Assembly: GCA_958009085.1 (NCBI GenBank)
Contig: OY253682.1
Span: forward strand, 124,001-188,000
DNA length: 64,000 nt
DNA from: Protoeuglena noctilucae
Taxonomy: Eukaryota
Reading direction: 5' to 3'
Part shown: piece after piece, positions 1 to 56,100 of the stretch
Position numbering within the stretch: the first letter of the stretch is position 1
Layout of the letters: the number at the start of each line of letters is the position of its first letter
Notes under the pieces: generated by a model
Told to the model about the DNA's origin: nothing
Database searches by the model: none
Seen by the model: the letters and a program-made list of their open reading frames with translations, nothing else
Translations under genes and position numbers: made by a program

Positions 1-2906
1 GTCCCCCTCGATGCCGTGCCCGGCCGCCCATCCCTTGATGGTCTTCTCGTTGGGCAGCACCACCGCCACCACGTACTTCTCCGACGGCTGCGAACAGGAT
101 CGCTTGAATTATTTACATCTTAGCCAGGTGCTAGCGCGTCTCCTCCGCCGCTGCGGGCCCTCACCTCTCCGTGGACGAACATCTGCTCCACCGCCGCGTT
201 CTTCTGCAAGACGGACTCCACGTACTGCAGGGGCGATTAAAGTGCATTGAGTAAGCACAACTACTGCACCAGGAGCTGCTGCAGTCGTTCCAAAAGCACC
301 GCATGTGATCAATCGGCTCCCTTGTCGCTCACCTCGGGTGCGATGTACTCCCCCTGCGCGAGCTTGAAGATGTTCTTGAGTCGGTCGATGATGCGGAGCG
401 CCCCGTTGCTCTGAATCTCCCCCACGTCGCCCGTGTGGAACCATCCGTCCCTGCGAGCACCACGCAACGCAGCGTTGCGGTCCAGCCCTAACGTGCTGCG
501 ATGTAGCCCTGCAAAACCCGACCAGCTCTTACTTGAGCGCGCTCTCCGTCTCTGTCTTGTCCTTGTAGTATCCCTGGAAGAGCCCCGTCCCGCGGATGAG
601 GATCTCCCCGCGCGGGGGGTCCCCCCGAGCGTCATAGTCCATCTCTGGCAGACTCTCAAGACAGAATTCGGTGCCAGGGGTCGGGAAACCGACCGTCCCG
701 AAGAAGTCCTACCACTCGGCGCCGATGAAGGACGCCGCGCACGTCTCTGCGCGGGGGGGCAGAGGGCAGAGGTGGGGGTGGGGGCGAGGGGAGCGCATGC
801 CATGGCATGCCACACGGTGCGACAGGATGTCCACCCCAGCAGCGATAACACTGTAAGCTGAGCCAGTGCATCGGTGATAGTCAAGATGCGACTGCAAAGC
901 TCTCCACAGCGCAGGCTGAGCCAGCGCACCTGGCAGCCCTTGCCAAAGCCCATTCCCTACCAGCCCTTACCGGAAAACCTTACCCCTCCCCCGCACCCTT
1001 GCTGGCACCCGTCACCCGTGAGCCCGTACCCTCATATCCCTGCCCATCCCTGCCCCCCTACCATCGCTCACCCGTAAGCCCGTACCCCTGCGCAAACTTG
1101 GCCCCCAGCGCCACACGCACGAACTCCTCGATGTGCGCGGGCATCGCCGCGGCGCCAGACACCACCACGCGCACCCGCCCGCCCAGCCTGGCGTGGATGT
1201 CAGAAAACGCCAGCCAGTCTGCCAGAGGCGAGGCGGTGTCCACGGGGAACCCCTCCATGAGGAAACTCCGTTTGCGCGAGAAGGCCCACTGGTAGACGGT
1301 GCGCCGCAGGACGCTCTTGCTGAGCTGCGACTGGACGGCCTGGTAGATGCGGTCGAAGATGCGAGGGACCCCGGGCAGCACAGTGGGCTGCAGCTTGGCC
1401 AGGTCATCCATCAAACCCCGCACGTGGCCCCGCCAGTACCCGATGGCGCATCCGCAGAAGGTCATCATGTCCTCGCAGGCCCGCTCGAAGATGTGGGCGA
1501 GCGGGAGATAGGAAATCATAACGTCGCCCGCCCACTCGATGTCCGCGCACTGCTTGGTCATGTGCATGAGCGAGAAGAGGACGTGCACGAGCGAGCGGTG
1601 CGTGAGCATGACGCCCTTGGGGTTGCCCGTGGTGCCCGACGTGTACATGATGGTCGACAGGTCGTCGGCGGAGGGCGGGTCCGGGGGGGCCGGAGACTCG
1701 TGGCCCTGCACCATAAACTCGCTGAAGGACGCTGCGTAGGGGGGAAAGAGAGAGTAATAAGTAAAGAACATGTGAGAGGCAAGGAACGCTGAGACTGTGC
1801 CATATCATAGAAGATACGCAACATTACAGCCAGCCAGGGCGGGCAGGCAAGCGTGTATCGGTGACTTACCCAAGCATGCACAAGCATGTGCAGGGGTGGT
1901 GCGTTATGTAAGGACCACGCATGCGCGCATCAGCAGTCTCTGCAATCTCTCACCGGTCCGCACATTCGTGGGGATCTTGGAGAGCTCTTCCTGCCCAGGC
2001 GCACCCCAGTGCACGACCACCGCCAGCCCCGACTTGGGCAGGGCGCCGGACAGGGCAGCGACCTTGGCGGCGGACACGAAGGCAGCCTTGGCCTCCGAAT
2101 GCTGAAGGATGTACTGCGCTGCTGTGGGACCCAGCGTGTCGTACACTGCGGGGGTGCGTGAGGTGGAGAGGTTGCTGTGGCTGAGGAGGCATTGCTGTGG
2201 CTGGGCGAGGTGTGATATGCCACAGCTGGGAGGTGGAGGTGTTGCTGTGGCTGAGCCGGGAGTGAAACGGCGACCAGCTTGGGTAAACCTGCGCGTGGGC
2301 TCACCGGGCACGCAGACGAGTCCCATGCGGTTGCAGGCCTGCATGGTCACCATCCACTCGGGGCTGTTGACCCCGTAGATGCACACCTGCGAGAGGCCGC
2401 TGCAACTTGTTTGCGTGGCTCTTGCGTGGCTCTTGCGCTGCAGTATAGAGGCGAAACGCATCGCGCTGCAGCCCCAGCGCCGCACCTTGTCGCCCTTCTT
2501 GAGCCCCGCCTTGCGCATCGCCGACCCAATCTGCTCCACCATTTGGAAGGCCTCTCCGTAAGAGTACCACTTGAAGCCCTCGTCATCGTTGGGACGATAC
2601 CCTGCACAAGTGCGCAGCAACACCCTTCTGCGAGTTATGCTCCAATGCATCGCGTAGATTATGCATCGGTGCAATAACTTTTTGCAGCCGCTGCTCACCG
2701 ACGAACTTTTGGTCCCGGAAGCGCTCGCAGGCGGACGAGAAGGTCTCCCAAAGCGTCTGGTGCTCCTTCACGCCCTTGAGGTGGACGGGGCCCTTCTCAG
2801 CCACCTCGAAATTGCCATATGCGGCCGACCGCGTCTTGGTGGCCGGCTCTACCTCGCCAATCCACCTGCGGGCCCCACGCATGCGCACGGGCGCGTCACG
2901 CATCAT
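1..2906 (-). CDS. LACS: Long-chain acyl-CoA synthetase, copy 1 (multi-exon; 3' end runs off window, first exon unresolved)
   Basis: Exons encode [14 protein letters not shown] (AMP-binding), [55 protein letters not shown] junctions join them in frame. Confidence 0.93.
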
Positions 2907-3440: not shown

Positions 3441-6400
3441 TCACTTCCCGTACATGGCGTTGAGCTCCTTGAGGTACCTCTTCTTGAGCTGCGGCCGGCG
3501 CAGCTTGAACGTGGGCGTCATGAGGTCGTTCTCGACCGTGAAGGCCTCGGGCGTCACGTGGACCTTCTTGATCATCTCGAAGCCCCGCAGCTTGGCCTCC
3601 CGCCCCGTGGCCTCCAGCTCCTCCATCACCCACTTGTTGGCGGCCGGGTGGGCGCAAAGAGCGGCGAAGTCCCCCTCGATGCCGTTGGATGCGGCCCACT
3701 TCTTGATCGCGCCCTCGCTCGGCACCACCACCGCCACCACGTACGTCTCGGTGGACTGCAAGGGGGGTGGAGAGGGTGGCATTCGGTGTTCTGCAATGAG
3801 ATCATACCAGGTACATCTCCGTAGATTGCAAGGGGGGTGGAGAGGGTGGCACTGAGCGTTCTGCAGTGAGAGCATACCAGCTACGTCTCGGTGGACTGCA
3901 AGTGGTGGCAACAAGAGTGGCAGAAAGGGTGGGAAGGGTGGCAGTCGATGTCTGCAATGATAGCCGACTGGGGTGGCGAGGGTGATAAGGCAATACCAAT
4001 AGCAGGCTCACCTCCCCGTAGACGAAGATCTGGTCCATGTTGGTGTTCTTCTTGAGGGCCGCCTCCACCACCTCGCTCGACACGTACTCCCCCTGCGCCA
4101 GCTTGAACATGTTCTTGGCACGGTCGATGATCTTCAAGGCGCCGTTCTCCTGCACCTCGCCCACGTCGCCCGTGCGGAACCACTCCCCGCTGCGAGGGGT
4201 GGGGGAGGCAAGGGTGAGGGGGCACTGGTACAGGTGAGCGCATGAAAGTATGAAAGTGGTATGGTCGACAGTTGCAGCCAGGACCTCAAGCCAGGCACCC
4301 CCAGCCAACAGCAAACCTCAGCCCACGTAGCCCCACTCACGATCCCCCATGCATCTCACCTGAACGTCTCTGCCGTCTTGGCCTGGTCCTTGAAGTACCC
4401 CGCGAACACCCCCGGCCCACGGAGCAGGATCTCGCCCCTCGGGGGGTCCGCGGTCGCATTGTAGCCCATCTCCGGGAGGCTCTCCAGGCAGAACTCGGTG
4501 CCTGCCGTGGGGAACCCGGCCGTCTGGAAGAAGCCGTCCCAGACCTCGGCGTCGACGAAGGACGCCGCACACGTCTCTGTGAGGGGGATGGGGTGTGGGG
4601 TGGGGGGTGAGGGGTGCGGGAGAGGGTGAGGGTGAGGGCAGGGGGTGGAGGGTGGGGGGTGAGCGGTGAGGGTGAGGGAGGGGGTTGGTGAGGAGGGACG
4701 GGCGCGGAGGGGAGGAGGGTGAGGGGTGAGGAACGTGGATGGCAGGCATCCGTCACTCTTGAGCCCATACCCCTGCACCCACCCTTGACAACACCCTTCA
4801 CCCCTGCCCATGCATCATCCCTCACCCGTGGGGCCGTACCCCTGCACCCACTCTTAGCACCAGTCACCCAAACCCGTTCACCCCTTCCCATACACCATCT
4901 CACCTGTGAGCCCGTACCCCTGCACGAACTTGGCGCACATTGCGACACGCACGAACTCCTCCGTGTGCCTGGCGATAGGCGCCCCGCCGGAGACGATGAC
5001 GCGCACGCGGCCGCCGAGCAGCCCCTTGATCTTGGAGAAGACGATGGTGTCCGCCAGCCACGAGGCGGACTCGACCGGGGCCCCGTCCATCATGAAGGCC
5101 TTCTTGCGGGAGAAGAGCCAGTTGAAGAGGAGGCGGCGGAGGAGGCTCTGCTGCAGGCCCTGCTGCACGCGGGCGTAGATGCGGTCGAACACGCGGGGAA
5201 CGCCCAGGAGCATCGTGGGGCGGAGGGCTGCCAGGTCGTCCATCAGCCCCGCGATGTCGCCGCGCCAGTAGCCGATGGACCCCCCGACGTGCGTGAAGAG
5301 CTCCTCGTTGACCCGCTCGAAGATGTGGGCGAGGGGGAGGTAGGAGATGAGCACGTCGTCCTGGGTGAAGACGAGGTCGGCGCACTGGCGGCTGTGGCAG
5401 ATGAGGGAGTAGACGGTGTGGACGAGCGAGCGATGCGTGAGCATGACGCCCTTGGGGTCGCCCGTAGTGCCCGACGTGTACATGATGGTCGACAGGTCGT
5501 CGGCGGAGGGCGGGGTCGCAGGGGTCATGGACGCCTTGCCCTGCTCGATGAACTGGTCGCAGGAGGCTGCGGGGGGTGAGGGGGAGAATGGTGAGTGCTG
5601 TCATGGTGATCGTTGTCACGAGCAAGCGCAGTCGTGGGCGAGCGTCGTGCAGACGGAGGGTCCACAGCGACCGCACGCAGCACGCAGCACATTGCCTTTG
5701 ACAAGACTGTCTAGTACGAGCGTCACATCGCCAGCCACGCACCCGTCTTGAGCGTGGAGGGGACCTTGGCGATCTCCTCCGCGGACGCGCTGCCCCAGTA
5801 TACCACGGTGGTCACGCCCGTCTTGGGCAGAGCGGCGGCCAGGGCACCAAGCTTCTTAGAGGACACGAACACCGCCTTGGCCTCCGAGTGGCTCAGAATG
5901 TACTCGGCGGCGTTGGGGCCAAGTGACTCGTAGACTGGGGGGGTGGACAGAGGGAGGGACTGGTGGGTTGTGGGGCAGGGGACGGGGGAGGTGGGAGGAG
6001 TTGTGACGCAATGTGCAATACGCCTGGATGTGCATCCCATGCGGGGGCGCTCGCGTGGCACAGTCGGCATGCTATCAGTGCGTCATGTGACGTTGGCCCA
6101 GCGTGAGCGGCCGGTGCTGCATGGCTGCATGGCTCACCGGGCACGCAGACGAGGCCCATGCGGTTGCAAGCCTGCATGGCCATCAGCCACTCGGGGGCGT
6201 TGGATCCGAAGATGCCGACCTGCGGGGGAACTGCCGAGGGCGATTCTGCAGCGGGGCTGCGGGGACCGGGGCCGCGGGGCTGCCCCTGTCGCGCCCACCC
6301 ACCTTGTCGCCCTTTTTGACGCCAGCGGCCGCGAGCGCGGAGCCCAGGGCCTCAACCATGGCGAAGACCTCCGAGTACGTGAGCCACGTGTAGGGAGATG

Positions 6401-7638: not shown

Positions 7639-10600
7639 ATGGTCTCCATGACCGCCTCGGCCCTTGGGGCCGCGATCCTCACGAACGGCGTCCTCGCGGC
7701 CATCTTCCTCACCCTCTTCTCGGTGCTGAGGATCCTGCCGCAGACCAGGGACTTCTATCAGTCGCGCGTGCTGGTGGGCAGCCCCGGCAGTTACAGCCTG
7801 GCCCATCCCTGCGCCCCTGCGCCTCGCGGCCGCGTATCGCCGGCCCACACCCGTTCGCACCCTCTTCGCAGGCGAAGAGCGTGGTCCGGAGACCACCGCC
7901 GCTGCCCGTGGTCCCGTTCCTGCGGTCCCTGAGCCCGTTCGCGTGGCTCCCGACCCTCCTACGCATGAGCGAAGGCGAGCGCGCACCCGGAAACTAAGCT
8001 ATTCCTCCATTCCTCGCAACTGTTCATTCGCGAACCATTCCCGCGCCCCGCCTCGCCCCCAGACATGCTCGGCGACACGTCGGGCCTCGACTCGCTCCTC
8101 GCCGTCCGCATGCTGCGCTTCGGGCGCATCCTCTTCCTCGGCATCTCCGCCCTCTCCCTCGTCATCATCCTCCCCGCCAACCTCTCGGGCCACCAGGTCG
8201 CCGCCTTGGGTCTCAAGGACCTCGACCGCGCCTCGATCGCCAACGTCGCGGATGGCGCCACCGTCCTCTGGGCCCACGCCGTCTTCCTCTGCCTCGCCAC
8301 GCTCTTTACGCTCGCGCTCCTCGACCGATTCTCCACCGGGTCCGTCGCCCTGCGCCTCCGGTTCCAAGCCACAGAGCCCCCGGGGGGGCCGGGCACCACT
8401 GTGATGGTCAGCGACATGCCCGGCACGGCCGCCGGCACGCGCATCACGCGCGCCCTGAGCTACCTCGACACGGGTGCGTGGTTCATCCCCGCCTTCATTC
8501 GCCGACGCCTCATCGCCCGCCTCCGCGCCGCCGCTACGGCCGTCGCTAATGCCGCCGTCGCCGGACCTGCTGCCCGGCCCGCGGCCGCCCTCGACAGCGG
8601 CGCCAGCACCGGCGCGGGCCTCCTCCCGCGCGACCTGATGCTGTCTGGAGCCGCGGCGCGGCGCGCGGGGCGGGGGGTGCTGACGGGCGGGGCCGCTCCT
8701 GGCAAGAAGGAGGGCGGGGCGGTCAGCGGGTATGCCACCCCCGCGTCTGACCCGGGGCTGGCGCCTGACAAGGGTCCCTGGATCCACGTGCGCATCCTGC
8801 AGGGGGCAGTGGACCCGCCCAGCGGCGCGGGTGCGGGGGATGGGCCCACTGACGCGCTCCTGCCGCGGCTGCCGGAGGTGAGAGCATCGGGTGGTATGTG
8901 GAGACGGCGTGGCATACAGAGTGTGTGTTGGTTGTGAAAGTAAGGGGGAGTGGGACGGTACCTGTGGAGGGCCACAAGAGGGTGGGAGAACCATAGACGG
9001 GGGTTCCCAAGAGAACAATCATCGCAGCACAGCCCTGCCCACGGCACCACCCCCTCCCCTCTCAGGTGCGCATCATGCCCGGCGCCTGGGCCGAGTCGCA
9101 GAGCCTCCTGGCGGCCGGTCTTTCGTTTGAGGAGATGGCTCGCTTAGAGCTGTTGACCGTGTACGGCGAGGAGAGCGTCACCGAGGTGTCATTCGTCAAG
9201 GACGTCAAGACCCTCGAGGCATTGAACAAGGAGTTTGAGGCGCTTAAGCAGAGGGCGGAGGTGAGGGGGGTTTGGGGGGTGGGGGTGGAGTGTGCTAGCA
9301 GGGGGCGGAGGTGAGGCAGTGCAGTGCATGGGGGTGTATGAACACTCTAGCAGAGGGCGGAGGGCTGTGGGGGCAGAGCAGCTTTGACAGACATTCCAGT
9401 CACCACTACCCCATTGCCATACTCCCATCTTCTTTTATGCAGCTCACCATCGACATCTACGCCCAGCAAGTCTCGCGCAAGGCGGCCCTGCCCGACGGCA
9501 AGGAGTCCCTCATCAAGCCCCGGCGCACCAAGGTCATCGCGGCGCTGCTGGGCGACTGGGGCAAGGAGTTCGTCACCACCAGAGGCGGCAAGCGGTCCGC
9601 GACGGTCGACACGCTCGAGTATTGTGCCGCACGGGCGAGGTACCTGAAAACGCGTATCATGGCCGAGCAGGAGGCGTGCCGGGACAGGCCGAGCCCCACG
9701 GCTTTCGTCTCGTTCCGCACTCGCGAGGCCGCGGCCGTCGCTTCCCAGGTCATGCTCCACCATGACGTCGAGTACTGGCGCGCGGGCGTGGCGCCGAGGC
9801 CGCAGGAGGCGAGGGCGGGGAAGGGCGATGTGGGATGCGATGGCACTGTGATTGCATGGGCTGGTATGTGCTGATGGGTGCGCTGTGCTTAGTCCCGACT
9901 CTCAGACATGCGGGCCTGGCCACCAACTCACCCGCATCCCCACCCCCCACCCCCCCACAGATCCTCTGGCGCAATCTGCTCCTCCGCTCCTGGGAGATGA
10001 CCCTCCGCCGCTCCCTCATGACCGCCGCCTACATCCTCCTCATCGCCTTCTACGTCATCCCGGTCACCTTCGTCCAGGGTTTCTTGGACGTCAATCGATG
10101 GGTCAACAGCCACTGGCCGGTGCTGGGAGACGTATACCGCCTGCCTGCCCTGGAGGCCTTCCTGCAGGGATTCCTGCCCGGGTTCGCCATGGTGCTCTTC
10201 CTGATCATCCTGCCGCCTCTGCTGCGGTGGTGGGAGCGCATCGGGGGCGCAAAGTCCGTGTCGGCGGTCGAGACGGCGGTGGTCACCAAGCTCTTCTGGT
10301 TCCAGGTCAGTTGATGATCAGGATGATCAGTTGTGGTAGATGTCGAGTGGATAGCATTGGAAGACACGAGTAGACGGCATGGGTGACAGGTGAGCAGAGA
10401 CGGCCGTCGACACCAAGCTCTTCTGGTTTTAGGTCAGTTGATGGTCAGTTGTAGTGCATGTCGAGTAGATGTCGAGTGGATAGCACTGGATGTAGATGGT
10501 GCGGGTGACGGGTAAGCAGAGACGGCAGTGGTGACCGAGCTCATCGCTCGCTCGCTCGCTCTCACTCTCACTCATTCCCTCACTCACCCATCTCACTAAC

Positions 10601-12156
10601 TTTCCAGGTCGTCACCCTCTTCTTCTTCAACCTGGGCGTCTCTTCTCTCGCCAAGGAGTTCCAGTCCACACTCAAGCACCCCTCCACCCTCCCCGCCAAA
10701 CTTGCCAGCAACGTCCCAGGCACTTTCTCTTTCTTCACGTCGTACATGCTGGTCGTGTCGCTTGGTGGCAACGCCTCTCAGCTGTGCAACATCGTGGGGG
10801 GCATCCTTTTCTGGGTGTTCAACAAGCTCGCCCCCACGCAGCGGACAAAGGCACGGCTGCTCGAGGTGAGATGGGATGGGTGGGGGTGTGCGTGTTTGGG
10901 GGGGTTGATTGTGGGGGTGGCAGTGGCAGTGGCAGTGGCAGTGTGTCTTGCTGAGAGGGGCGTGCAGGCATGCGTGCGTGTATTCCAGAATCGCCCTTTC
11001 ACCCACACCCACTCTCGCTCTCTCTCAGTCTCTCTCATACACACCCTTTCCCTCTTGTTATCCCCAGAACACCACCTACAGCTTCTCCTCCCGCGTCCCC
11101 TCCCACTCCATCACCGTCCTCATCTGCCTCGCCTACGCGTTCGTCACCCCAGTGCTGCCGCTGGTGAGGCGACAACATGAGACATGCGGCGCGTGCTATG
11201 ATGCTGTCTTTGCATGTTCGTCACGCCCGTCCTGCCGCTGGTGAGGGACACACATGCTCCTGCGTGCATGGCAACATGGCAACACTCACTTACCCACAGT
11301 CACTTACTCCCCACTCCCCCACCCACCCACCCACCCACCACCCACTCATCCCCCCACCCCCCAGATCGGCCTGGTCTACATGTGCATGGCCACCGTCGAG
11401 ACCAAGTACGTCGTCGCCTACATGGCAACCTCCGCATTCGACACGGGCGGCGCAATGTGGCTCCAGTTCCGATCCCACGTCCTGTCCGCCGTGGTCATTC
11501 TGCAAATCCTCGCCATCGCCGTGCTCGGGCTGAAGAAGGCCGGGGGACCTGCGGGGCTCACGCTGGCCCTCCTGGTTTGCACGATCGTGTACTGGATCGT
11601 GGCGGGCCCGGCGGCGGCGCGTCCCGTGGCGACGACGGCGCTCAAGACGGCCCAGGACATCGACGCGCTGCAGGGGGAGTGTAAAGTGTCGCAGCCGGCA
11701 GTGGGGATGTACGTGCACCCTGGGATGCGGCTGAAGGGGGAGGACTTCGATGGGGTGGCGGAGGAGGCGGAGAGGATGCTGGCAGTCATGCAGGTGAGGG
11801 TGGAGTGGTGGGCGTGGTGGAGGAGGTGGGGAGACTGTGCAGGTAAGGCGGTGTGAGGGGCAGGCGATTGTGGGAGCAGCTAAGCGGGCACAGAGCGTGG
11901 ATGGGACGTTCAAGTGCGTTGCGGCTGAACTGCACCTGCAATCGCACATCACCCGCACCCTCGCGCCCCACTCCCTCCGCGCCCCACCCTCGCACCCACA
12001 TCGCACCACCCCTCGCACCCCTCCCCACCTCTTCCCACCCTCGTCACCCCTCAGGTGTACCACCAGGGCTCCGATGGCCGCCTCCAGGCCTTGGAGATGG
12101 TCCAGAGGGCAGAGCAGGCGAGGGCAGAGGGCGCCGTCATCGACGTGGTGGTCTGA
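7639..12156 (+). CDS. OSCA/CSC1/TMEM63 (ERD4-like) mechanosensitive Ca2+-permeable channel, multi-exon
   Basis: N-terminal TM (AIFLTLFSVLR), GLDSLLAVRMLRFG, AFVSFRT, APRPQE|ILWRNL, FYVIPVTFVQG, many TM segments; TGA at 12154-12156. Confidence 0.9.
10270..10545. repeat. ~125-bp tandem repeat containing the OSCA exon end and donor site
   Basis: gagacggc...accaagctcttctggtt..aggtcagttgatg at 10270 and 10397, partial copy at 10519. Confidence 0.88.
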
Positions 12157-24777: not shown

Positions 24778-24930
24778 CATCGGGAAAACCCGGCGATTTG
24801 ACGTCACTCGGATCAGAAGGATCGCGGGAATCACTGGATTCATCCCAGTGATCCCCGGGAATCGCCGGGATCATCCCCGTGATCCCGGCGATCCCCGCCA
24901 CTGCCGCAGTGATCCCAGCGATCCCGGGCC
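24778..24930. repeat. Left terminal/subterminal GATC-rich repeat array
   Basis: Multiple gggatcatccc/gtgatccc/cgatccc units. Confidence 0.8.
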
Positions 24931-37100: not shown

Positions 37101-38363
37101 GTCCACATGCCATTTCCACTCCACAGCAGCAGCCGCGACACGACCCTCTCTCACCACCAATCAGCCCCATCCTCGCCCTCACTGTCCTCACCAGCACCCA
37201 CCTCACCCACCTCACCCTCACCCCCGCAGCGGCGACAACGACGTCACCCCCTACCTCGTCTCCCGCTACCACCACCTCACCACTAACACTCACCCCTCCT
37301 CTCCCCCACTGCAGTGGCGACAACGACATCACCCCCTACCTCGTCTCCCGCTACTACCGGCCCCCCGAGGTCATCCTGGGCCTCCGCTACGACCATCCAA
37401 TGGATATGTGGGCCGTGGCGTGCGTCCTATACGAGCTCTACACCGGCCGCATCTTGTTTCAAGGCCGTAGTAACAACGAGATGCTCTCTCAGTTCCAGGA
37501 CCTCAAAGGGCCTTTTCCGAAGAAGATGCTCCGAAAGGCCGCGTTCCGGGACCACCACTTCGAGGGGGAGCCGCACTTTGCATTTTGGTGAGCGGAGGGG
37601 GGTTGAGGGTTGGGGGTGAGGGGGGGGGTGGTAGAGGGTGGGGGGAGGGGGTGGGGTGGTGAGGGTGGCTTAGTAGTCAGGTTGGGGTGAAAACTATCCA
37701 TGGATGTCGATGGGCAAGGCAGCATGCTGAGCCCCGTCTTGCCCCTGCGAACCCTCTCGCACCCCTTCACCTCACCCCAGCGTCATCGACAGCGACCCCA
37801 CTTCCCAATGCGTTACCCATGCGAATCCTCCCAAACCCCCACCCCCCCAGTGTCATTGAGAGCGACCCGACCACCGGCGAGCCCCGTCGCCGCGTGGTGC
37901 CCAGCCCGGCCGCCAAGGAGACGATGAGGGACCGGCTGGCCGCCATGGGGACGCAGGGGAACCGGAAGATGATGCTGGCGCTGGCGGACCTGCTCGACAA
38001 GGTGGGGGTGTTGGGGTGGTGGGGTGGATGGGGTGTTAGGGGGTGGGGTGTTCGTGGATATGAGCATGGACTGGATCCCAACAGGCACATGGTGTAATTC
38101 CTCTCTTTATTTTTTCTGTTCCCATCTCACGATATCAATCTCCGCAGATGCTGTCGTTGGACCCTGACAAGCGCATCACGGTGTCCCAGGCGCTGCGCCA
38201 CCCCTTTATCACGGGGGTGCTGGCGCCCAGGCCAGAGAAGGAGAAGGATAAGGGTAAGGCGGGGGGTGCGGGGGCGGGTGTGGCTGGCAAGGCGTGCCGG
38301 GCGAGAGGGGTGGCGACGATGGGAATTGCGTTGGCGTTTGGAGGGACAGGTGGCGAGATTTGA
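34144..38363 (+). CDS. PRPF4B: Pre-mRNA processing factor 4 kinase with long RS/RE/RD-rich N-terminus
   Basis: DNYDDAEGYY, GKGVFGSV, HADIKPDNIL, ICDFGSA, NDITPYLVSRYYRPPE, KGPFPKKMLRK, LDPDKRITVSQALRHPFI. Confidence 0.95.
35125..35705 (+). repeat. Coding purine-rich low-complexity tract (RE/RD dipeptides) in PRP4K
   Basis: (gagagg)n-like sequence translating to REREREGRDRDR. Confidence 0.85.
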
Positions 38364-40802: not shown

Positions 40803-40837
40803 GCGAGAACCGCTGTTGCGGCGCTCCCCACCTAGCA

Positions 40838-40924: not shown

Positions 40925-40958
40925 CCCCGCGCGAGCGCGAGATTGAAAGGAGATGTTG

Positions 40959-47100: not shown

Positions 47101-50100
47101 TACCCCCCCTCCCCACCACTCGTCTCCCCACCCTCCCCACTCTTCCCACCCCTCCCGACCCTCCCCACCATCCCCACCCCTCACCCCCTTCCCCACCCTT
47201 CCCATCCCCCCAACCCCTCACGCACCCTCCCCACCTTCTTCATCCCTCACCCTCCCGACCCCTCCCCACCCCCCCCCCCAACCCCTCATGCACCCTCCCC
47301 ACCCCCCCAGACGGCCGGCAAGGACGGCCTGGTGCACCTCTACGCCCGCTGCCGCGACGGATTCCGACTCATAGACACCGTGGATGCCCACGAGGGCCCC
47401 GTGACTGCCGTGCGTTTCCTGGGGAACGGCACCTTAGCGACATGTGGTGCGGACGGGCGGCTTTGCGTGTGGGGTTTGCCGGGGTGCGAGGGCCGCGGTC
47501 GGCTGGAGCTGCTGGGGCTGGAGAGGACGGAGGATGGCACGGCACTGTTCGACGTGGCGGGGGAGCCGAGCGGGCAGTACGCTCTGACGGGTGAGGGGGG
47601 TGGTGGGGTGGGGTTGTGGTGGAGTGGGGTGGCCATGAAGTGAGGTGGTGGAGTGAAGTGGGCAGTACGCGCTCACGGGTGAGGATGGGTGGAGAGGAAT
47701 GAGGTGGTGGGTGGTGGAGTGGGGTTGAGGTGTAGTGGAGATGCATGGCACGTTGCAGGGTCGCATCGTTACGCATCACTCCTGCTAAGCACCTACCTAT
47801 CCCATTCCCTCCATCCACTTGTCACTCCCCCACCCGCAGTGGGCCGCGCGTGCGTGCTGGGCGTGTGGGACGTGGGGGGTGCAGGCCCTGTGGGGGAACA
47901 CGACTTGGAGGAAGCAGGGGGGTGGCCCCTGCAAGTGCGGTGCGACCCGGGGGGTGTCGTGGCAGTCACGGCACATGCAGACGGGCGCGTCTGCGTGACT
48001 GACTCTGCGTCAGGGCAAGCGCTGGCCGTGGGGCGGGCGCATGGGGATGTGGCGGCGGCAGTGGCGGTGACGGCGGGCGGGGGCAGGGTGGTGTCCGGGG
48101 GGGCGGACGGGGTCGTGGCGGTGTGGCGGCTGCCAGAGGTGAGGGGCGGTGGGTGGGTGGTGGGGTGCGTTGGGCTGGTGGGGTAGGGTGGTGGGGTAAT
48201 GGGTAATTGGGTGGTTGTTTGGGCTGCTGCGTTGCAGATTTGCGGTTGTGTTGAGGATGGTGGATTATCAATGAAGTCCTCTTGCTCCGCCTCTCTGCCC
48301 CAGGCGGTCGCCCGGCTGAGCTGGGAGCGGTCGCGAGCGGCGGGCCCAGGGCCGCTCACAGCAGCCGAGGAGGTGCAAGTGTCGATCGACATGGTGGGAG
48401 GCATCCAGGCGTTGGTTGATACGGGGGTGGGGAGAGATGGTGCTGCGGGGCAGCGGGGGAGGGAGGTGGGAGAGGGGGAGGCGGAGGGCGGGCGTGTGGC
48501 TAAGCAAGCGAGGGGGCAGGGCGACGCGGACGTTCACTCGAGCGCGGGGGTGGCCCGGTGGGCAGAGGTGCGTGGAGTGGGGCGTGGTGGTGGTGGTGGT
48601 GGTGTGTGGGGCACTGACGTTTGGCATGGCAAGCGGGGGTGTCGCTGTTAGGGCACCGTCGTTGTGTTACCAGTGCTGTGTGGATGGGAGCGGAGAGCAC
48701 GGGACGACCTTTGACAGGCAAACCCCCGCCCCCGCCTGCCCCCGCAGTCCCTCCGCGACACGCCCCGACTGGCGCCTGACGTCAGTCAGGGTAAACCCCT
48801 CCAGGTCGTCTCCGTGGATTTCTCCGCGGCGCTGTCCGCGGCAGACGCAGAGATGGGCGACGGAGCATTACCTGAGAACATCTCAGCTATCGCCACCCAC
48901 TCAGCCCCAACTGACCCCACGCCAGTAGCGCTGGCACTGACGACCACGCTCGACACCAACGCATTGTCACAGTCGCATTCTGACGCACGGGAACGTGTGT
49001 CCGTGACCCTGTCTGTCGCTGACCAGCGCCCGGCTGAGATCTCGGGCAATGAGGTGGGGGCTGGGAGCCGGGAGGGTGCGGGTGCGGGTGAGGGTGAGGG
49101 TGACAGCAGGGGTGGCAGTGAGGGTGGGCGAGGGGATGGGCTGCAGGCGTCTGGGAGTGTGGGTCGAGGTGGATGGGAGGGGGTGGATGGGGCGGTGGTG
49201 GAGAGCCTGGGTGTGACGTTGGCTGGAGGGGAAGGGCTGCGAGAGAGGGAAGAGGAGGGGCGTGGGGAGATTGTGAGAGAGGGAGAGGGTGTGAGGGAAG
49301 GAGAGGGTGCAGAGGAGGGTGGGATTGAGATGGGTGGGGGTTCGTTGATGAAAACGATACGAGGGGGTATGGGTATGGGCGGCCTGGGCTCCTTTGCAAT
49401 GGGGGCAGTGGCAGATGGGGCGGCAGTGGGCGGGGGTGCGAGTGCCGAGGGCGACGGTGGTGGGCTGGAAAGGGGGAAGGACACGGGTCTGTCAGATACA
49501 ACGGAAGCGGCGGGTGCGGGTGGCAGTGCGGGTGGGGGTGCGGGTGCGGGTGCGCATGCAAGTGCGTTGGGGCAGGGCAGTGGCAGTGCCTTGGAAAGAG
49601 GTCATCGCCGGGATTCGATGCCTGGCAGTCCCGGCGCCGAGGACGACGACGATTGGTCGATGGAAGACGCATCCACCGAAAGACACAGCGGCTTGACCAA
49701 CTCCGCCATCACCGCTGCCGGCCGTGCCACCCCTATGTCCGGCGAGGGGTCCTATCTAGACGAAACGTCCCACGCGACCGGACAGTCATCGCCCGCGGGC
49801 GCTCCCGCGACTGACTACGCAACTGGCAGTGACACTGACGGGGACAGCGGGGTGCCCGCGCCCACCCCGAGCCCCGACCCCGTCGTCGCATCCCATCAGC
49901 ACCACCATTTGAGGGGCAACCATGCCCGCGCCGCGCTGGCCGCGTCCTCGCTCGCGTTGCAGCATATCGAGGACATCTCTGCGTCGGGGGTTGACGGGGC
50001 GACGGGGCAGGGCGTGAACAGCGGTGCATGGCTGGGTGCGGATGTCACGTGGGGTGGGGTGGGGGCAAGCAGCAGGTCCAGCCTCTCGCAGCAGTTCCGG

Positions 50101-53100
50101 AGCCGGCGGTCGGGAGCGGGGAGGGAGTGGGATCTGGCGGCGGCGAGCGCGGGGAAGGGGGAGGTGGGGGGCGAGGGGCGAGGGGCGGGTGCCAAGGGGA
50201 CAGGCAAGGCGGGGCTTGCCCATTTGAAATCCAGGGTAGCTGAGGCGTCGCGGGCGATCCTAGCGCGGCGGCCGGCGAGCGCGGGTGCGGGGGGAATGGC
50301 TGGGGCGGGAATGGGTGGCAAGGAGAGTGGGCTTGGCGTTGCAAGGGATGACGAGGACGCGCCGCCGGAGCCGGAAGTCTCCGTCTGGAGCCCCCACACG
50401 AGCGTTTCTGGCAACAGTGCTCTGCACGAGTCAGGGCCCGGTGCTGGCGGTGGTGTTGACGCGAGTGCAGGGTCGATATCCACTGGGCCATACAACACAG
50501 TCGGTCCGGCGCCTTCGGTGTGGCCGACGCATGCGGGAATCGACTCGGTTGCGAGCTCTGCCGCAGCGGGGTACCTCCCGGTGTTTCCTGCGCCACGCGT
50601 AGGGCCGGGCGAAACGCCAGTGGCGCACGCCAGAGGGGTGCTGGGGATGCAGAAGCTCAGGGACGGGCGGGTGCGGCTCAGCGGTGGCCGGCCGGGGCGT
50701 GGGGCGGGGGATGAGGGCGGGGTGGCTGGGAAGGGCGAGGGCGGGGCAGGGGGCGAGGATGGCGCTGAGCAGGGGTCTACAGAGCAGGGGCCAGGCCTTG
50801 TGGGGTCTGCGGCGGGGCAGTCGGTGCCCGCGCAGGTGTCCGCGCGTCTGGCGGCGCTGGACACTGACGCCACTGGGCGGGCGGTGCGGGGTGACAGCAT
50901 TGTCAGTGGTGATGGCGGTGGTGGGGGTGGGGTGGCGACCGGGGCAGTGCTTGCTGGGGTGTCCTCGGCCCCCCCCACCGTGGCTGCGACGCCGGGGCTG
51001 GGGTGGGAGGAGAGCGGGGTGGATGGCGGGCATGCTGCGACGGTGGGTGACTCTGTGGATGGGGGGGTGCCACCAGGACCAACGCCGAGTGTTGACCCGA
51101 CGTTCAACTGGAGCGCCCCGCGCCGCGAGGCGAGCGACGCGCGTTCGAGTCTCGAGGAGGCCTCCATGGCGCGCGGAATCGGGTGGAGCAATCGGTCGAG
51201 CGCGGACGGTGGCGCGGAGGCGGGGGCGGATGTGGCCGGGTCGGCATTTGCATCGCCCCGCAGCCAGACGGGCAGCCGCGGCGACGCCCGTGAGGCCATG
51301 GACGTTGGGGAAGCGAGCGTGGGGGAGGTGTCGTTTCAGGACATGGCCGGGCGCGGGGGTGGGCTGGACGAGGGTGGTGCGGGGGGTGGGGTGTTGTCGG
51401 GCGCCGCGAGCGTGGGTCAGCGGAGCTCAGCTGCGGAGGAAAGCGACGGGGGAGAGGAGGCGGCGCCGTCGCGACACGGCAGTCGTTTCTTCAAAGCGCT
51501 TAACACCCTCGCGCTGAGGACCAGGCGGGCGCTGGGGGGCAGGCGGGCGGGGGGCGAGAAGCAGGCAGGGGCGGGGGCGGGGGTGGGTGGGAATGGGGGT
51601 GGTAAGGGAGGTTCTGAAAGCGCAGCGGTGCCCCGCAAGACCTCCGCGCACGAGAGCAGCGCGACTGGGCCGGGCGGCGCGGGGGTGCTGGGCCGGCGGG
51701 TGGCGCATGAGCGGGGGCGTCACGGGTCGGGTGACCTGGCCCTTGTGATGGGGTCCGGTGGGTCACTGGCGACCGTCTCGCGGTCTCCGGGATCGGTCGC
51801 GTCGACGGTATCCGCGTCGCTACCCTCCGCTGTGTTCCGGAGCGGCGGGGTGGGTCCCGGGCCGGTGCGCAAAACCAAGGCACGGCCGGTGGGGCCCTCA
51901 GTGCAAAGCCCCGGTGAAACCGGGGCCGCGGCACGCAAGGTATCCGCGGGGGACGCACAGAGCGCCGCGCCGCTGGGTCCCGCGGAGTCGATGAGTGAAG
52001 GGGAGGAGGCTGGGGGCGGGGCGGGGGGCGCGGGAGGGTCCGGCAAAGTGCGACGGAGGTCGGGGTCCGGGACGGCGGTGCCGGTGCAGAGTTTCATGCA
52101 GCGATTGCTGTTCGGGGAATTGCCAGATTCCGAGGATCGGGGAGGCAGCGGGGACGGCGGGGAGGAGGGCAAGGCTGCAGGGGTGGCAGCGGGGGTGGCG
52201 GTGGCAGCGGGGGCGGTGGGTGCGGGCGCGGGCGCGGTGCCGGGGCCAGCAAGCGGAGTGGCGAACGCGGCTGTTAATGAGCGCGGGCGCCCCCGCTCCG
52301 CTCCCGCGGTGCCACCCCGCCTGCCGCGGCCGCCCTCGCCCCTCCGCCGGTCCCAGCCCACAGCGGCGACCATCCCCGAAGAGGCTGAGGCTGAGGTGGA
52401 TGTGGAGGGAACGCCGCACAGCGCATTGGAGCTGTCCACCAGCAGCATGCGGACGGGGGAGCTGGTGGCGGGGGCGGAGGGTGCGCTGGACACCCCCCCT
52501 GGTTTGGCGATGCGTGATCTGGCACCCACGCTGCGAGCGGCGGTGGGGGCGATGGACCGTGCCCTTCAGCTGCCCGCGGGGGCGTGGGGGTCGCCGGGGC
52601 GGCCGGGCGCGGCGACGCTGGCGGGGCTGCTGCAGGTGGTGGGGGAGAGGGCGGGGTTGCTGCGGGCGCGGGTGGTGGGGGGCGGGCGGGAGGGGTGGCG
52701 TGGGGTGGGGTGGAGGAGCACGGAGGAAGGTGAGGGGCAGCGATGGGGTGTTGTTTGGGATCACCATCGGGGTCTTCATGCGTTATCATCATCTTAGATG
52801 ATGATAAGCAATGAGTAGTACTTACTACATCTCAGTATAACTGTCTGTGCGCTGCCAACCCCCACCACCACCCATCCCCACGCCCCACCCCACTCCACCA
52901 CTCCCACTCACCCACCCACCCCCGCACCCCATCGCATTGCAGAGGAAGACGCCTCGCCCTCCCCCGCCCGCTGGGGCATCTGGACGTCTCTGTTCGGGTC
53001 AGGCAGAGTGGAGGCTGCCACGCCAGAACCCGACAAGACGCGGCTGCCTTCCTTCTCAGATGGCATCGTGGGGGAGGCAGGTGAGATGGGGATATTTGGG

Positions 53101-56100
53101 AATATATACATAGAGATCAGTAGATAGTAATACTAGTAATACTATTGATGGCATCGTGGGGGAGGCTGGTGAGAAGGGAACTGATAGGGACTGAACGATA
53201 GTAGTAGCATTGCTATATTGTAATGGAATGCACCCCACCGCAATTACCCACACCCACTTCACTCCCACCACCTCTACCCACTCCCCTTCTCCCTCCCCGC
53301 AGGCTCCCCTCAAGGCCCAGACACCGACTCTGCCCCGAGCGCATCCCACAGCCCATCACCCACCGCCGCACACCGCCAAAGCCCCACCCATGCCGACGGC
53401 GACACTCACAGCGACACCCAGGACCCCCCGTCTCCGTCATCCCCGATCGATTTATTCGTGGATGTACCCTCCCGACTGGATATGGTCAGTTTCTGGCGGG
53501 GGCGGGAGGAGGGAGAGGGTGCTGGGGAGGGTGCGAGCGGTGGGGCGTGGTTGCGGGGGCAGGGTGAGGGAGCGGAGGGGAGCGGGGAGAGGGAGCTGGG
53601 GGACAACGAGGGCGGGGGTGAGAGGGGAGCAAAGGGGGCGGTTGGCGGGACGGGCGAGGGGGGGCACGGCAGTGGGAGGGAGGGAGAGAGCGAGAGGGGC
53701 GGTGCGATGTGGCAGGGTGGCGATGGGAGGGGCGGGGCGAGGGGCGTGGACAGGCGTGGTGGCGCGGAGGGCGTGGCGATGGCGCTGTGGCGGAGCGGGG
53801 TGCTGGCGGCGGCGCCTGGGACGGAGGCGTGGGCGGTAGCAGTGAGCGCGGTAGAGGCGGCGATGGGAGGGACATCTGAGGACGGCGGGGCTGGGGTTGC
53901 CCTGCCTCTGAGCACCCAGGTTATGCCCCAGAGCCCCCAGAGTCGGGCGGGTGGGGCTGGGGTGGGCGGGGCTGGGGTTGGTGGGGTGGGGGTGGGGTCA
54001 GGTGAAGGTGAGGGAGGGGGGTGGGTGGTGGGGGGTGCGTGGTTGTAATGGTTGTATTGATTGTGATCGTTGCTGTCACTAAAAGTGTTTGCTTTCCTTG
54101 ACATTGCAGGCTGTGGTGATGGTGCTGGGTTGGAGTCGACTGTTGGCAGCAGCTCTGGGGGCGGGGATGGGGATGGGGAGGGCTTGCGAACGGCAGCCGA
54201 TGGGAGCGGAAGGGATGGGAGGGAGACGGGTGTTGTGGACAGTGGGAGCGAGGGATTGGGAGAGGAGAGGAGTTTGGGAGGGCAGTTGGGTGGTGACAGG
54301 ACAGGCGCAACGGAGGGGGTTGCTGGGACTCATGACGACGTTGCTGGGACTCATGACGACGTGGGTAGGGTTGGTGAGGGGTCAACCTGTGAGGGTGCCA
54401 ATGAGGGTGCTGATAAGGGTGGCAGTGGGGGCGGCAAAGGGGATAGCAGTGGGGGTGATGGTGGGGATGGCAATGAGGGTGGCAGTGGGGGTGGCAGTGA
54501 GGGTGCCGATAAGGGCATTGGTGGGGGTGCCAATGAGGGGCTCGTGGATGGTGCCCGTAAGGGTGACGTGGGGTCCAGCACAGGCCCAACGGAAGGGCCG
54601 GCGTCGAGAGAAGCAGAAACATTTGCTGACCACCCCCCTGGTCCTAGCCACTCCCCTGCATCCAACCACCAACCTGCACCCAGCCACCCCTCCGGCCCTA
54701 GCCACCCCTCTGGTGCTAGCCACCCAACCTCACCTGGCCACACCCCTGCACTCAATCACCCACCCTCACCTGCCCCTGCCCCTGCCTCCTCGTCACGATC
54801 TGCGTCTGAGGCGTCGTGGGCTGAGAGCGATGTGCATGGGGACCCATGCCAGGAGATGGGGACGGCATTGGGGATAGAAACCGGGGTGGAGGTGCCTTGG
54901 GAGGGGGCGGGGATGGGTGGTGGTGGGGGTGCGGTGGAGGGCAGGGTGGGGGTGGTGGGCGAGGGTGGGGAGACTGGGAGTGGCAGTGGTGGTGCTGAGG
55001 GCGGGGTGGAGATGGGTGGGGAGGCGGGAGGCGGTGAGGGTGTCAGTGCAGCAGTGGCGACCGTGGAGGTGGCTCCAGAGGAACAGGCGCCAGTGGGGTC
55101 GCAGGGAGAGGTGCATGAAACCTCGACCAAAGCCGCGCCAGACGTGCCATGTGACTGCGCAGTGGCTGGGACGTCGGTTGCAGCGGCGTCGCACCAGCCC
55201 CCATCGACAGCCCCGGCCCCGGACGCCCCGAAGGGGGAGGCCTTGCTCACTGGGGTCGAAACCTTGACGTCGTCCCCTGGCGAGGCGTCCCCGGGGATCG
55301 AACCCTTAACGTCTCCGTCCACGCACCGTGCCGACCCTCCCACGGGGGCACCTGAAGAGCCCAGGACAGTCTCCATGGCTCCTGCAGCCCCGCTGGTCCC
55401 TGACGGTGGCTCAGACCGGCAGTCCAACGCTGCTGGGGTGCACTCGGAGGGTGCAGGGGTTGAGGGAGCAGTGACGGGGGCAGTGGCAGGGGCGGTGGCA
55501 GGGGCGGTGGCTGGGCATGATACTGGGGCAGGGTTGGAGGCGGCAGCTGGGTCGGAAAGGGGGGTGTTGGTAGCGGAGGGGGACTCCGGCCATGGCGACG
55601 ACGTGCATGGGGGGGTGGGTGGCGAGGGAGGGGCGGGGAGCGAGGGGTGGGAGGAGGTGGCGGATGAGACGGCAGTGGGTGAGGAGAGCGGCAGTGAGGG
55701 GGCGGAGGAGGTGGTGGATGAGACAGGGGTGGGGAGTGAGGGGAGCGAGGGCGGTGGGGCGGATGAAGTGGCGTCGGGGGACGGCGGTTGGGTGGTGGAT
55801 GGCGAGGGGAACGACGAGGACGCTGTGAGCGACGTGGAGAGTCAAGAGGAGGGTGGGGACGATGGTGCGGGTGTAGCAAGCTCATCAATTGCAGAGGAGG
55901 GGGCGTGCGAGGTGGAGGTGGAGGTAGAGGGTGGGGCGCGGGGCGCTGGAGATGGGGGGTCGCAGGCGAGGGTGGGGGTCGATGAGAGGGCAGGGACATC
56001 CCCGTCGTCCGCGGCTGACGTCGCGGCGGGCTTAGCCGGGCGCGAGGTGCGTCGTTTGGAGTCTCACGCGTTCGACATGGACACGAGCGACGACGAGGCG

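What the first reader, a model, noticed from the sequence alone, without database searches (positions are those of the whole stretch)
1012..53174. Recurrent splice-junction 'echoes': introns carry degenerate copies of their own exon boundary
Seen in at least eight introns of five genes, at 56-127 bp spacing: LACS1 1012-1031 vs 1068-1087; LACS2 3741/3811/3881 and 4753/4821 vs 4899; OSCA 10270/10397/10519 and 11139 vs 11216; PRP4K 37226 vs 37311; WD40 47572 vs 47660 and 53059 vs 53147. Each repeats 20-45 nt of exon, usually with the GT or AG site. Inference: short tandem duplications are tolerated when they straddle a splice site because the extra copy is absorbed into the intron. That would be a route to intron growth, intron sliding and cryptic alternative splice sites, and the density here looks unusually high.
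Basis: partly seen in the sequence, partly recalled or inferred. Interest (0 to 1): 0.78.

Follow-up and report, generated by a model that had tools for sequence, protein, structure and literature searches.

The report
Splice-junction tandem repeats inside algal introns
About one in nine introns in this stretch of a marine green-alga-like genome contains decayed tandem copies of its own exon-intron border, a kind of repeat already described in lancelets and in some human genes, and here it looks like a harmless by-product of frequent short tandem duplication.

Summary
All eight reported echoes are in the sequence, and an unbiased test found two more (9261 and 37775). A 38-nt junction probe finds a copy (score >=15) in its own intron at 10 of 174 junctions, against 4 of 14,964 comparisons with other introns (Fisher 3e-17).

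Independently assembled DNA contigs of another run are identical across the six echoes in 1-20000. RNA contigs use the outermost copy there: the first donor or the last acceptor.

Under uniform placement of 50-127 bp tandem duplications, 56-59% of those that leave the mRNA intact should straddle a junction; I observed 10 of 17. Duplications inside exons are depleted (5 seen, about 22 expected), and 4 of the 5 have periods that are multiples of three. Every intact echo site tested (11) would give a frameshift or a stop if used.

The kind is already described: amphioxus 'mirages' and human minisatellites spanning an exon-intron border (F7 IVS7 and others). Whether the density is unusual among genomes, and whether intron sliding or echo-site use occurs, was not tested. 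Interest is modest.

The parts
1012..1087 (-). LACS1 donor echo. Used donor at 1071|1072 (real copy 1068-1087). One echo at 1012-1031 inside the intron (about 748-1071), period 56. Echo donor hexamer has G5 changed to C.
   Evidence: An RNA contig piece starts exactly at 1072. A DNA contig of run X5 is identical over 1-1637. The intron's acceptor was placed by paralogue alignment.
3736..3945 (-). LACS2 acceptor echo. 70-nt unit, real copy 3736-3805 (20 nt of exon plus 50 nt of intron 3' end). Echo units at 3806-3875 (AG lost) and 3876-3902 (AG kept) lie upstream in intron 3756-4011.
   Evidence: TRF gives 2.4 copies at 83%. The RNA joint 3755/4012 appears in three RNA runs.
4714..4930 (-). LACS2 donor echo. 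Used donor at 4903|4904. Echoes at 4821-4852 and 4752-4783 (periods 78 and 69) lie in intron 4577-4903. Both keep GT.
   Evidence: The RNA joint 4576/4904 appears in three RNA runs, and X5 DNA is identical over 3597-5496.
9247..9366 (+). Used donor at 9260|9261. Echoes near 9298-9317 (GT kept) and 9349-9362 (GT lost), period about 50, in intron 9261-9440.
   Evidence: Junction test score 17; sequence. RNA contig arithmetic gives a 195-nt exon 9066-9260.
10270..10545 (+). OSCA donor echo. Unit of about 125 nt in 2.2 copies: 10270-10396 (36 nt of exon plus 91 nt of intron), 10397-10518 and 10519-10545. Lies in intron 10306-10607.
   Evidence: Pfam RSN1_7TM positions 1-100 and 101-184 abut across the intron. 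RNA contig length fits exactly: 347+258+95=700.
11139..11292 (+). OSCA donor echo. Real copy 11139-11169 (25 nt of exon plus GTGAGG). Echo at 11216-11246, period 77, in intron 11164-11364.
   Evidence: and the same RNA arithmetic.
37210..37358 (+). PRP4-kinase acceptor echo. Echo at 37210-37273 (20 nt of intron end plus 44 nt exon-like). Real copy at 37295-37358, period 85, in intron 36916-37314.
   Evidence: The Pkinase profile runs 3-145 then 154-212 across the intron. Best PDB match is PRP4 kinase, E 3.5e-52. No RNA was laid here.
37751..37874 (+). Echo near 37775-37798, real copy near 37845-37868, spacing 70-72, in intron 37588-37850. This is the weakest case (score 15).
   Evidence: The intron comes from my gene model only.
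47572..47747 (+). WD40-gene donor echo. Real copy 47572-47596 (19 nt of exon plus GTGAGG). Echo at 47660-47684, period 88, in intron 47591-47839.
   Evidence: Both flanking exons have WD40 Pfam hits. No RNA was laid here.
53059..53234 (+). Donor echo in a low-complexity gene (my model 48271-56163). Real copy 53059-53090, echo 53147-53178, period 88, in predicted intron 53081-53320. The spacer is AT-rich.
   Evidence: Exon status rests on coding potential only; no Pfam hit.

Best explanation
The echoes are small, decaying minisatellites of 2-3 units with a 50-127 bp period. In each, the outermost unit spans an exon-intron border. This is the structure called a 'mirage' in amphioxus and known in humans as a VNTR spanning an exon/intron border.

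Origin (inferred): short tandem duplications arise all along genes, by replication slippage, unequal exchange or break repair. I cannot tell which.

Filtering (supported by counts): a duplication inside an exon usually breaks the frame and is lost. One inside an intron is harmless. One that straddles a donor or acceptor is also harmless, provided the spliceosome keeps using the copy that is contiguous with the exon. That is the first of tandem donors or the last of tandem acceptors. The spare copy then becomes intron sequence.

Outcome (shown by anatomy): the intron lengthens by one period per event, and the spare copy then decays. Because introns here are short (median 144 nt) relative to the duplication length, more than half of all tolerated duplications must straddle a border. 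That is why the echoes look dense.

The echo sites are potential cryptic splice sites, but none would yield a productive mRNA.
For: - Real and local: 10/174 own-intron matches against 4/14,964 with other introns. Far-offset controls are near zero.
- Whole-unit tandem structure in the clearest cases: a 70-nt unit at 83%, and a 125-nt unit whose intron-derived part is 71% identical.
- Not an artefact of one assembly: contigs of run X5 show 0 differences over 1-1637, 3597-5496 and 5485-11306.
- The outer copy is used. RNA joints 3755/4012 and 4576/4904 appear in three RNA runs. OSCA contig lengths fit the first-copy donors at 9260, 10305 and 11163 exactly. Pfam profile positions are continuous across the echo introns of OSCA and PRP4K.
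- The neutral placement model predicts a straddling fraction of 0.56-0.59. I observed 10/17 = 0.59 (binomial p 0.8-1.0).
- Exon-internal duplications: 5 observed against about 22 expected (Poisson 2e-5). Four of the 5 have periods divisible by three.
- Using any of the 11 intact echo sites would cause a frameshift or an in-frame stop.
- The same structure is documented elsewhere, with splicing at the authentic site: F7 IVS7 and four other human genes (PMC1557585, passages), and amphioxus globin, Adh3, TnC and PGBD5 (PMC3087553 and PMC3902484, passages).
Against: - Unit alignments show exon-derived columns 86% identical (264/306) but intron-derived columns only 61% (421/694). This exceeds the 2:1 divergence ratio that simple neutral decay predicts. 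At 53059 the contrast is 27/28 against 56%. Ascertainment (I detect echoes by their junction part) and indel-prone intron sequence can explain much of this, but I did not simulate it.
- Two old paralogues both carry an echo at the homologous donor. LACS1 and LACS2 share 63.5% of amino acids, and their four-fold sites are 55.7% identical against 40.6% expected if saturated. The LACS1 echo shares derived bases after the GT with LACS2 echo 3. The chance of a second hit at that junction is roughly 10/176.
- The counts are small, and they rest on an approximate home-made gene model for 20001-64000.
- RNA evidence comes from contigs, which hide minor isoforms. 27 joints were not shown.
- Copy-number polymorphism, a hallmark of minisatellites, was not seen and could not be tested.
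Confidence: 0.78

Rival explanations
1. The echoes are kept by selection or by repeated gene conversion. For example, they could act as extra U1-binding or intron-definition elements, as decoys, or as switches to unproductive (NMD-targeted) splicing.
For: - The exon-derived part plus splice motif is much better preserved than the rest of the unit: 86% vs 61% overall, and 27/28 vs 56% at 53059.
- 6 of 9 donor echoes keep a hexamer as good as the real one.
- The echo is present at the homologous donor of the old paralogues LACS1 and LACS2, with shared bases after the GT.
- A 72-nt stretch just left of the window matches LACS2 3597-3668 at 70/72. This suggests conversion between the paralogues (tables 3 and 5).
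Against: - The number of straddling repeats is just what neutral placement predicts.
- 3 of 14 copies have lost the GT or AG.
- No echo-site joint appears among the RNA joints shown.
- All echo-site products would be out of frame or stopped.
- Detection through the junction part inflates its apparent conservation.
- There is no orthologue evidence.
Confidence: 0.1
2. A mutational process aimed at splice junctions makes the copies. Examples are breaks at R-loops or G-quadruplexes near the G-rich intron starts, repaired with templated insertions of nearby sequence.
For: - Introns here are rich in G-runs.
- In several echoes only 20-35 nt around the junction are clearly alike, while the spacer aligns poorly.
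- The event recurs at the homologous LACS junction.
Against: - There is no excess of straddling over intron-internal repeats.
- Every exon-derived copy runs contiguously through the junction. The only exon-to-intron match not already counted as an echo (53884, score 16, left unclassified) is a low-complexity hit abutting a predicted junction. This is as expected for tandem units and not for templated patches.
- The best-preserved cases are whole-unit tandem repeats.
- At 53059 a second short match, displaced by 14 nt (spacing 74 vs 88), suggests the spacers are homologous but have acquired indels.
Confidence: 0.06
3. Assembly or haplotype artefact: the echoes are mis-joined alleles or collapsed reads.
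For: The window may derive from a metagenome sample. Short tandem repeats are a classic assembly hazard. The amphioxus paper notes one mis-assembled mirage.
Against: - Logan contigs of a separately sequenced, organism-labelled run (X5, another study) match with 0 differences and 0 gaps across the six echoes in 1-20000.
- The copies differ from each other by 5-40%, so they are not collapsed identical reads.
Confidence: 0.02
4. The repeats are relics of intron birth, either by Rogers-type tandem duplication of an exonic AGGT or by insertion of a mobile 'introner' with target-site duplication.
For: Tandem duplication is an accepted route of intron gain (PMC3443670, PMC2891723, passages). The amphioxus authors propose intron gain from mirages.
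Against: - In the Rogers model the intron's 3' end should copy the upstream exon's end, and the intron's start should copy the downstream exon. Here the copy repeats the same-side border and includes intron-only sequence, so the intron pre-existed.
- An all-against-all BLAST of the 88 introns gave 3 hits between different introns, involving 2 intron pairs, all of them short matches in simple G- or GA-rich sequence. There is no introner family.
Confidence: 0.02
5. Chance similarity in G+C-rich, low-complexity sequence.
For: Base composition is 67% G+C and TRF lists 260 rows of short repeats.
Against: Far-offset and other-intron controls are essentially empty (Fisher 3e-17).
Confidence: 0.01

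Closest known systems
[quoted passage not shown]
   Same: Both are tandem units that span an exon-intron border. Both 5' and 3' borders are affected. Unit sizes are similar (10-160 bp there, 50-127 bp here). Many but not all units keep AG/GT. Regular splicing is undisturbed. Several genes are affected, and the amphioxus authors suggest a general phenomenon. Sources: PMC3087553 and PMC3902484, passages read.
   Different: The amphioxus clusters have 3-6 units at 81-100% identity and differ between haplotypes. Here there are only 2-3 units, they are much more decayed (exon-derived 86%, intron-derived 61%), and no copy-number variation was seen or testable. The host here is a green-alga-like protist, not an animal. 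The original Adh3 paper was not read; it is cited only through PMC3087553.
Human minisatellites whose first unit spans an exon-intron boundary: F7 IVS7 37-bp VNTR, and also IFI6 (6-16), CBS, LMNB2 and PDGF
   Same: The authentic donor is followed by reiterated pseudo-donors. In F7, LMNB2 and PDGF only the most upstream donor is used, as in the donor echoes with RNA support here (PMC1557585, passages).
   Different: The human arrays have 5-25 near-identical units and are polymorphic. Only donors are described. In IFI6 and CBS some pseudo-sites are used. Here the copies are few and diverged, acceptors are affected too, and many genes in one 64-kb stretch are involved.
[quoted passage not shown] 2011; Gao and Lynch 2009; Drosophila cases in Lehmann et al. 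2010)
   Same: The same mutational input, a short intragenic tandem duplication, with the splice machinery hiding the extra copy (PMC3443670 and PMC2891723, passages).
   Different: That model creates a new intron from exon sequence. Here an existing intron is lengthened and no new intron position is created. Gao and Lynch 2009 could not be opened and is known to me only from a reference list and recall.
Tandem repeats enriched near intron ends in green algae (Chlamydomonas, Volvox)
   Same: Introns are the compartment richest in repeats, and the repeats pile up toward the intron-exon junctions (PMC3887541, abstract and passages).
   Different: In the passages I read, that survey concerns repeats inside introns, mostly short motifs such as GT/AC. 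It does not describe units that include exon sequence.

Membership tests
Mirage / minisatellite spanning an exon-intron border | Head-to-tail repeat whose outermost unit contains the authentic exon-intron junction | tested here: met
   Ten junctions. Junction positions come from RNA joints, RNA arithmetic, Pfam continuity or my gene model.
Mirage / minisatellite spanning an exon-intron border | Inner units reiterate the splice signal (pseudo-sites) | tested here: met
   GT or AG is kept in 11 of 14 echo copies. 6 of 9 donor echoes keep an equally good hexamer.
Mirage / minisatellite spanning an exon-intron border | Normal mRNA is made from the authentic (outermost) site | tested here: met
   Direct RNA joints support two junctions. 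RNA contig arithmetic supports three, and a piece end supports one. Pfam continuity supports PRP4K. The three remaining junctions (37851, 47590, 53080) have no such check. Minor isoforms cannot be excluded.
Mirage / minisatellite spanning an exon-intron border | Copy-number instability or polymorphism between alleles | not testable with these tools
   Run X5 shows no indel over 1-20000. Metagenome scans found no homologous locus.
Mirage / minisatellite spanning an exon-intron border | Units highly similar over their whole length (81-100% in amphioxus; identical in F7) | tested here: not met
   Only 2-3 units are present. Exon-derived columns are 86% identical and intron-derived columns 61%. 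I read these as old, decayed members.
Rogers-type intron gain by tandem duplication | The intron equals the segment between duplicated AGGT sites, so the intron's end copies the upstream exon's end and its start copies the downstream exon | tested here: not met
   The echoes repeat the same-side border and carry intron-only sequence.
Introners (transposon-derived introns) | Many introns share one element sequence | tested here: not met
   An all-vs-all BLAST of 88 introns gave 3 hits between different introns (2 intron pairs), all short matches in simple G- or GA-rich sequence.

The most novel reading that the evidence does not exclude
The junction copies are not neutral debris. Their exon-like part plus splice motif is held similar to the real border, by selection or by short-tract conversion from the constrained exon. 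It could then serve as extra U1 landing sites or decoys that shape intron definition, or as a switch to unproductive splicing. This would explain why that part is far better preserved than the rest of the unit, and why two ancient LACS paralogues both carry a copy at the same donor.
Probability: 0.1. Interest if true: 0.7.

Novelty: new member of a known kind. Interest (0 to 1): 0.3.

Why it matters
The window offers a compact natural data set: ten cases in 64 kb, covering both donors and acceptors. It bears on two long-standing questions.

1. How does the spliceosome choose among equivalent tandem splice sites? The outermost copy wins here, as in human F7.

2. How do short introns grow? Here they grow one duplication period at a time.

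The window also shows that a high density of such structures needs no special mechanism when introns are short and tandem duplication is frequent. In seven literature searches I found no report of exon-border-spanning repeats in an alga. A genome-wide survey in this organism would extend the 'mirage' phenomenon beyond animals. It is not a new kind of biology.

Tried and rejected
- The whole genome is not held, so no genome-wide test was possible.
- Orthologue comparison failed. The search for related loci with the LACS2 exon protein in metagenome contigs gave no confirmed relative. A 25-base exact pattern found one contig (L001), which shares only a 29-nt chance match.
- My first gene-finder passes under- or over-predicted. 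The final set still mis-set some borders, which I replaced from RNA or paralogue evidence.
- The earlier-findings index held nothing on this genome or on similar structures.
- Gao and Lynch 2009 is not held.
- The joint table of read laying was cut (27 joints not shown), so absence of echo-site joints is not evidence of absence.
- I considered a long target-site duplication around an inserted AT-rich piece at 53081-53146. I dropped it because the two spacers share a displaced short match and no terminal inverted repeats frame it.
- I considered templated-insertion repair. I ranked it low because all exon-derived copies run through the junction.

Full report
WHAT THE WINDOW IS

The window is 67% G+C and holds intron-rich nuclear genes. 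The LACS2 exon protein has its best named matches in green algae at only 55-63% identity, all carrying Pfam PF00501 and named long-chain acyl-CoA synthetase. The same DNA is held by marine metagenome runs, marine metatranscriptome runs and runs labelled with one coded organism. No whole genome is held.

- LACS.
- OSCA-type channel: RSN1_7TM and PHM7_cyt.
- PRP4 kinase: best solved relative PRP4 homolog, E 3.5e-52.
- WD40.

The gene carrying the 53059 echo has no Pfam hit. In my models it is separate from the WD40 gene.

CHECKING THE OBSERVATION

All eight echoes are in the sequence and are found by the repeat tools.

An annotation-free scan looked for ungapped, non-microsatellite matches at spacing 30-300. 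It gave 21 hits at score >=16, against 0, 0, 2, 0, 0 at five far offsets. At score >=15 it gave 46 hits in 23 loci, against 1, 1, 3, 1, 0, 0 hits at six far offsets.

GENE MODELS

RNA contigs laid on 1-20000 give exact joints for eight LACS2 introns and four others. One of these is a GC-AG intron at 19091-19180.

For the rest I wrote a small codon-bias and splice-site dynamic-programming gene finder. Its first pass recovered 8 of 8 RNA-defined LACS2 introns. The later pass mis-set two of them, and I replaced those with the RNA coordinates.

The final set has 88 introns, with median length 144 nt. Twelve come from RNA joints. Six more, in OSCA and LACS1, were confirmed or corrected by RNA contig arithmetic or paralogue alignment. 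The rest are predictions.

For each junction I took 30 nt of exon plus 8 nt of intron. I searched the intron itself and, as a control, every other intron.

At score >=15, 10 of 174 junctions match their own intron, against 4 of 14,964 comparisons with other introns (Fisher 3e-17). Two of the four control hits are LACS1/LACS2 cross-hits.

The first is the donor of intron 9261-9440, with three copies at a period of about 50. The second is the acceptor of intron 37588-37850, with spacing 70-72.

NOT AN ARTEFACT

Contigs assembled independently from run X5 come from another study and carry an organism label. They match with no differences and no gaps over 1-1637, 3597-5496 and 5485-11306. These stretches cover the six echoes in the laid region. 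The four echoes beyond 20000 were not checked in this way.

WHICH COPY IS USED

Joints 3755/4012 and 4576/4904 appear in three RNA runs. So the last acceptor copy and the first donor copy are used in LACS2.

In OSCA, one RNA contig has exactly 700 nt between its pieces ending at 9806 and starting at 11364. This equals 347+258+95 nt for exons bounded by the first-copy donors at 10305 and 11163. Use of an echo donor would add 127 or 77 nt.

The 195-nt exon 9066-9260 likewise fits the first-copy donor at 9260. An RNA piece begins exactly at 1072 in LACS1.

Pfam profile positions abut across the echo introns: RSN1_7TM 1-100 then 101-184, and Pkinase 3-145 then 154-212.

In all ten cases the geometry is the same. 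Donor echoes lie downstream of the used donor, and acceptor echoes lie upstream of the used acceptor.

ANATOMY

Periods are 50-127 nt, with 2-3 copies. The exon-derived part is 14-44 nt long (14 at the new 9261 echo). GT or AG is kept in 11 of 14 echo copies.

The clearest cases are whole-unit tandem repeats:
- The LACS2 acceptor: a 70-nt unit at 83%.
- OSCA 10270: its intron-derived part is 71% identical over 93 columns.

Extra units make up about 250 of 302 nt of intron 10306-10607 and 140 of 256 nt of intron 3756-4011. So intron growth by this route is directly visible.

If any of the 11 intact echo sites were used, the mRNA would gain 50-147 nt. It would then be frameshifted or would meet an in-frame stop (the 9261 period is 50, corrected by eye).

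IS A SPECIAL MECHANISM NEEDED?

I classed the 23 local-repeat loci, plus the 9261 echo, against the gene models:
- 10 straddle a junction.
- 7 lie wholly inside introns.
- 5 lie inside exons.
- 3 lie in unannotated DNA.
- 1 weak exon/intron hit was left unclassed.

Two merged loci were counted both as straddling and as internal.

I placed units of the observed lengths uniformly along genes. I counted as tolerated only those wholly in an intron, or those crossing one junction with at least 15 nt of exon. On that basis 56-59% of tolerated events should straddle a junction. I observed 10 of 17, or 59%.

Scaled to those 17, about 22 exon-internal events would be expected without selection. Five are seen (Poisson 2e-5), and four of the five have periods divisible by three.

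This is the signature of an even mutational input filtered by reading-frame selection. The echo density follows from short introns plus frequent short tandem duplication.

WHAT DOES NOT FIT NEATLY

Across 13 unit alignments, exon-derived columns are 86% identical (264/306) and intron-derived columns 61% (421/694). Neutral decay predicts only about a twofold difference in divergence, because only the real exon copy is constrained.

Detection through the junction part inflates its identity, and G-rich intron sequence is prone to indels. Together these may account for the gap, but I did not simulate this.

At 53059 the contrast is extreme: 27/28 against 56%. A displaced short match suggests the spacers are homologous but have acquired indels.

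LACS1 and LACS2 are old paralogues. They share 63.5% of amino acids, and their four-fold sites are 55.7% identical against 40.6% expected if saturated. Yet both carry an echo at the homologous donor. The LACS1 echo shares bases after the GT with LACS2 echo 3.

This could reflect independent recurrence (chance roughly 10/176), conversion between the neighbouring paralogues, or maintenance by selection. In favour of conversion, a 72-nt stretch just outside the window start matches LACS2 3597-3668 at 70/72.

RIVALS

- Chance and assembly artefact are excluded by the controls above.
- Rogers-type intron birth predicts that the intron end copies the upstream exon end. The echoes instead repeat the same-side border and include intron-only sequence.
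- An introner family is excluded for this window. An all-against-all BLAST of the 88 introns gave only 3 hits between different introns, involving 2 intron pairs, all short matches in simple G- or GA-rich sequence.
- A junction-directed break-repair process and functional maintenance remain possible at low odds.

WHAT IS KNOWN

The structure is in print.

Borensztajn et al. 2006 (PMC1557585; abstract, introduction and discussion passages) describe the human F7 intron 7 minisatellite. Its first 37-bp unit spans the exon 7 border, so 4-8 identical pseudo-donors follow the authentic donor, and only the most upstream one is used. The paper lists IFI6, CBS, LMNB2 and PDGF as further cases.

Ebner et al. 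2010 (PMC3087553; passages) describe 'mirages' in amphioxus globin genes. [quoted passage not shown] Splicing is undisturbed, and Adh3 and other loci are cited. The PGBD5 paper adds imperfect 60- and 108-bp examples (PMC3902484, one passage).

Tandem duplication as a source of new introns is reviewed in PMC3443670 and PMC2891723 (passages). In Chlamydomonas and Volvox, tandem repeats are densest in introns and toward the intron-exon junctions (PMC3887541, abstract and passages).

Seven searches turned up no report of border-spanning repeats in an alga. Supplements were not consulted.

VERDICT

The structure is a decayed, low-copy member of a known kind (mirage, or border-spanning minisatellite), in a lineage where my searches found no report of it. 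Its density needs no special mechanism.

Intron sliding, echo-site use and comparison with other genomes remain untested.

Noticed in passing
window 24827-24886 and 30239-30298: Two 60-nt arms, each built of 31-bp sub-repeats, are 80% complementary and lie 5.35 kb apart. They bracket a multi-exon minus-strand gene model (25473-28973). This may be a DNA transposon with sub-terminal repeats. Its three long ORFs have no Pfam hit.
   Followed up: partly
window 12674-14007 (gene 13516-14445): Word depth in DNA run X5 is about 2400-2860 here, against about 100-175 in most of the rest of the laid stretch. The region overlaps an ankyrin-repeat gene (Pfam Ank_2, E 2e-31). This probably reflects a multi-copy family or repeat.
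   Followed up: partly
window 19091-19180 and 9809-9960: GC-AG introns. The first is read from an RNA joint after a 3-nt shift. The second is inferred from RNA contig arithmetic. My model predicts four more GC donors among 88 introns, which is more than the usual share of about 1% (recalled figure).
   Followed up: partly
window 1-7100 and just left of position 1: LACS1 and LACS2 are tandem paralogues with 63.5% amino-acid identity over the 219 aligned residues of the large exon. A DNA contig running off the window start carries 72 nt that match LACS2 3597-3668 at 70/72. This hints at a gene-conversion tract between the paralogues.
   Followed up: partly
window 35131-35500: A long GA-rich, 6/12/18-periodic tract (TRF 47 copies) lies inside the predicted N-terminal Arg/Glu/Ser-rich region of the PRP4-kinase gene. 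It appears to be coding low-complexity sequence, not intron.
   Followed up: no
window 3334-3400 (minus strand): The LACS2 transcript ends at 3334 with a poly(A) loose end. I saw neither the green-algal TGTAA motif nor AATAAA just upstream. This was by eye only, and both motif names are recalled.
   Followed up: no
window 2160-2255 (minus-strand LACS1 intron 2146-2304): A purely intronic repeat in three copies (spacing about 70 between the outer ones) near the 3' end of the intron. It is an example of the intron-internal class used as the comparison group.
   Followed up: yes
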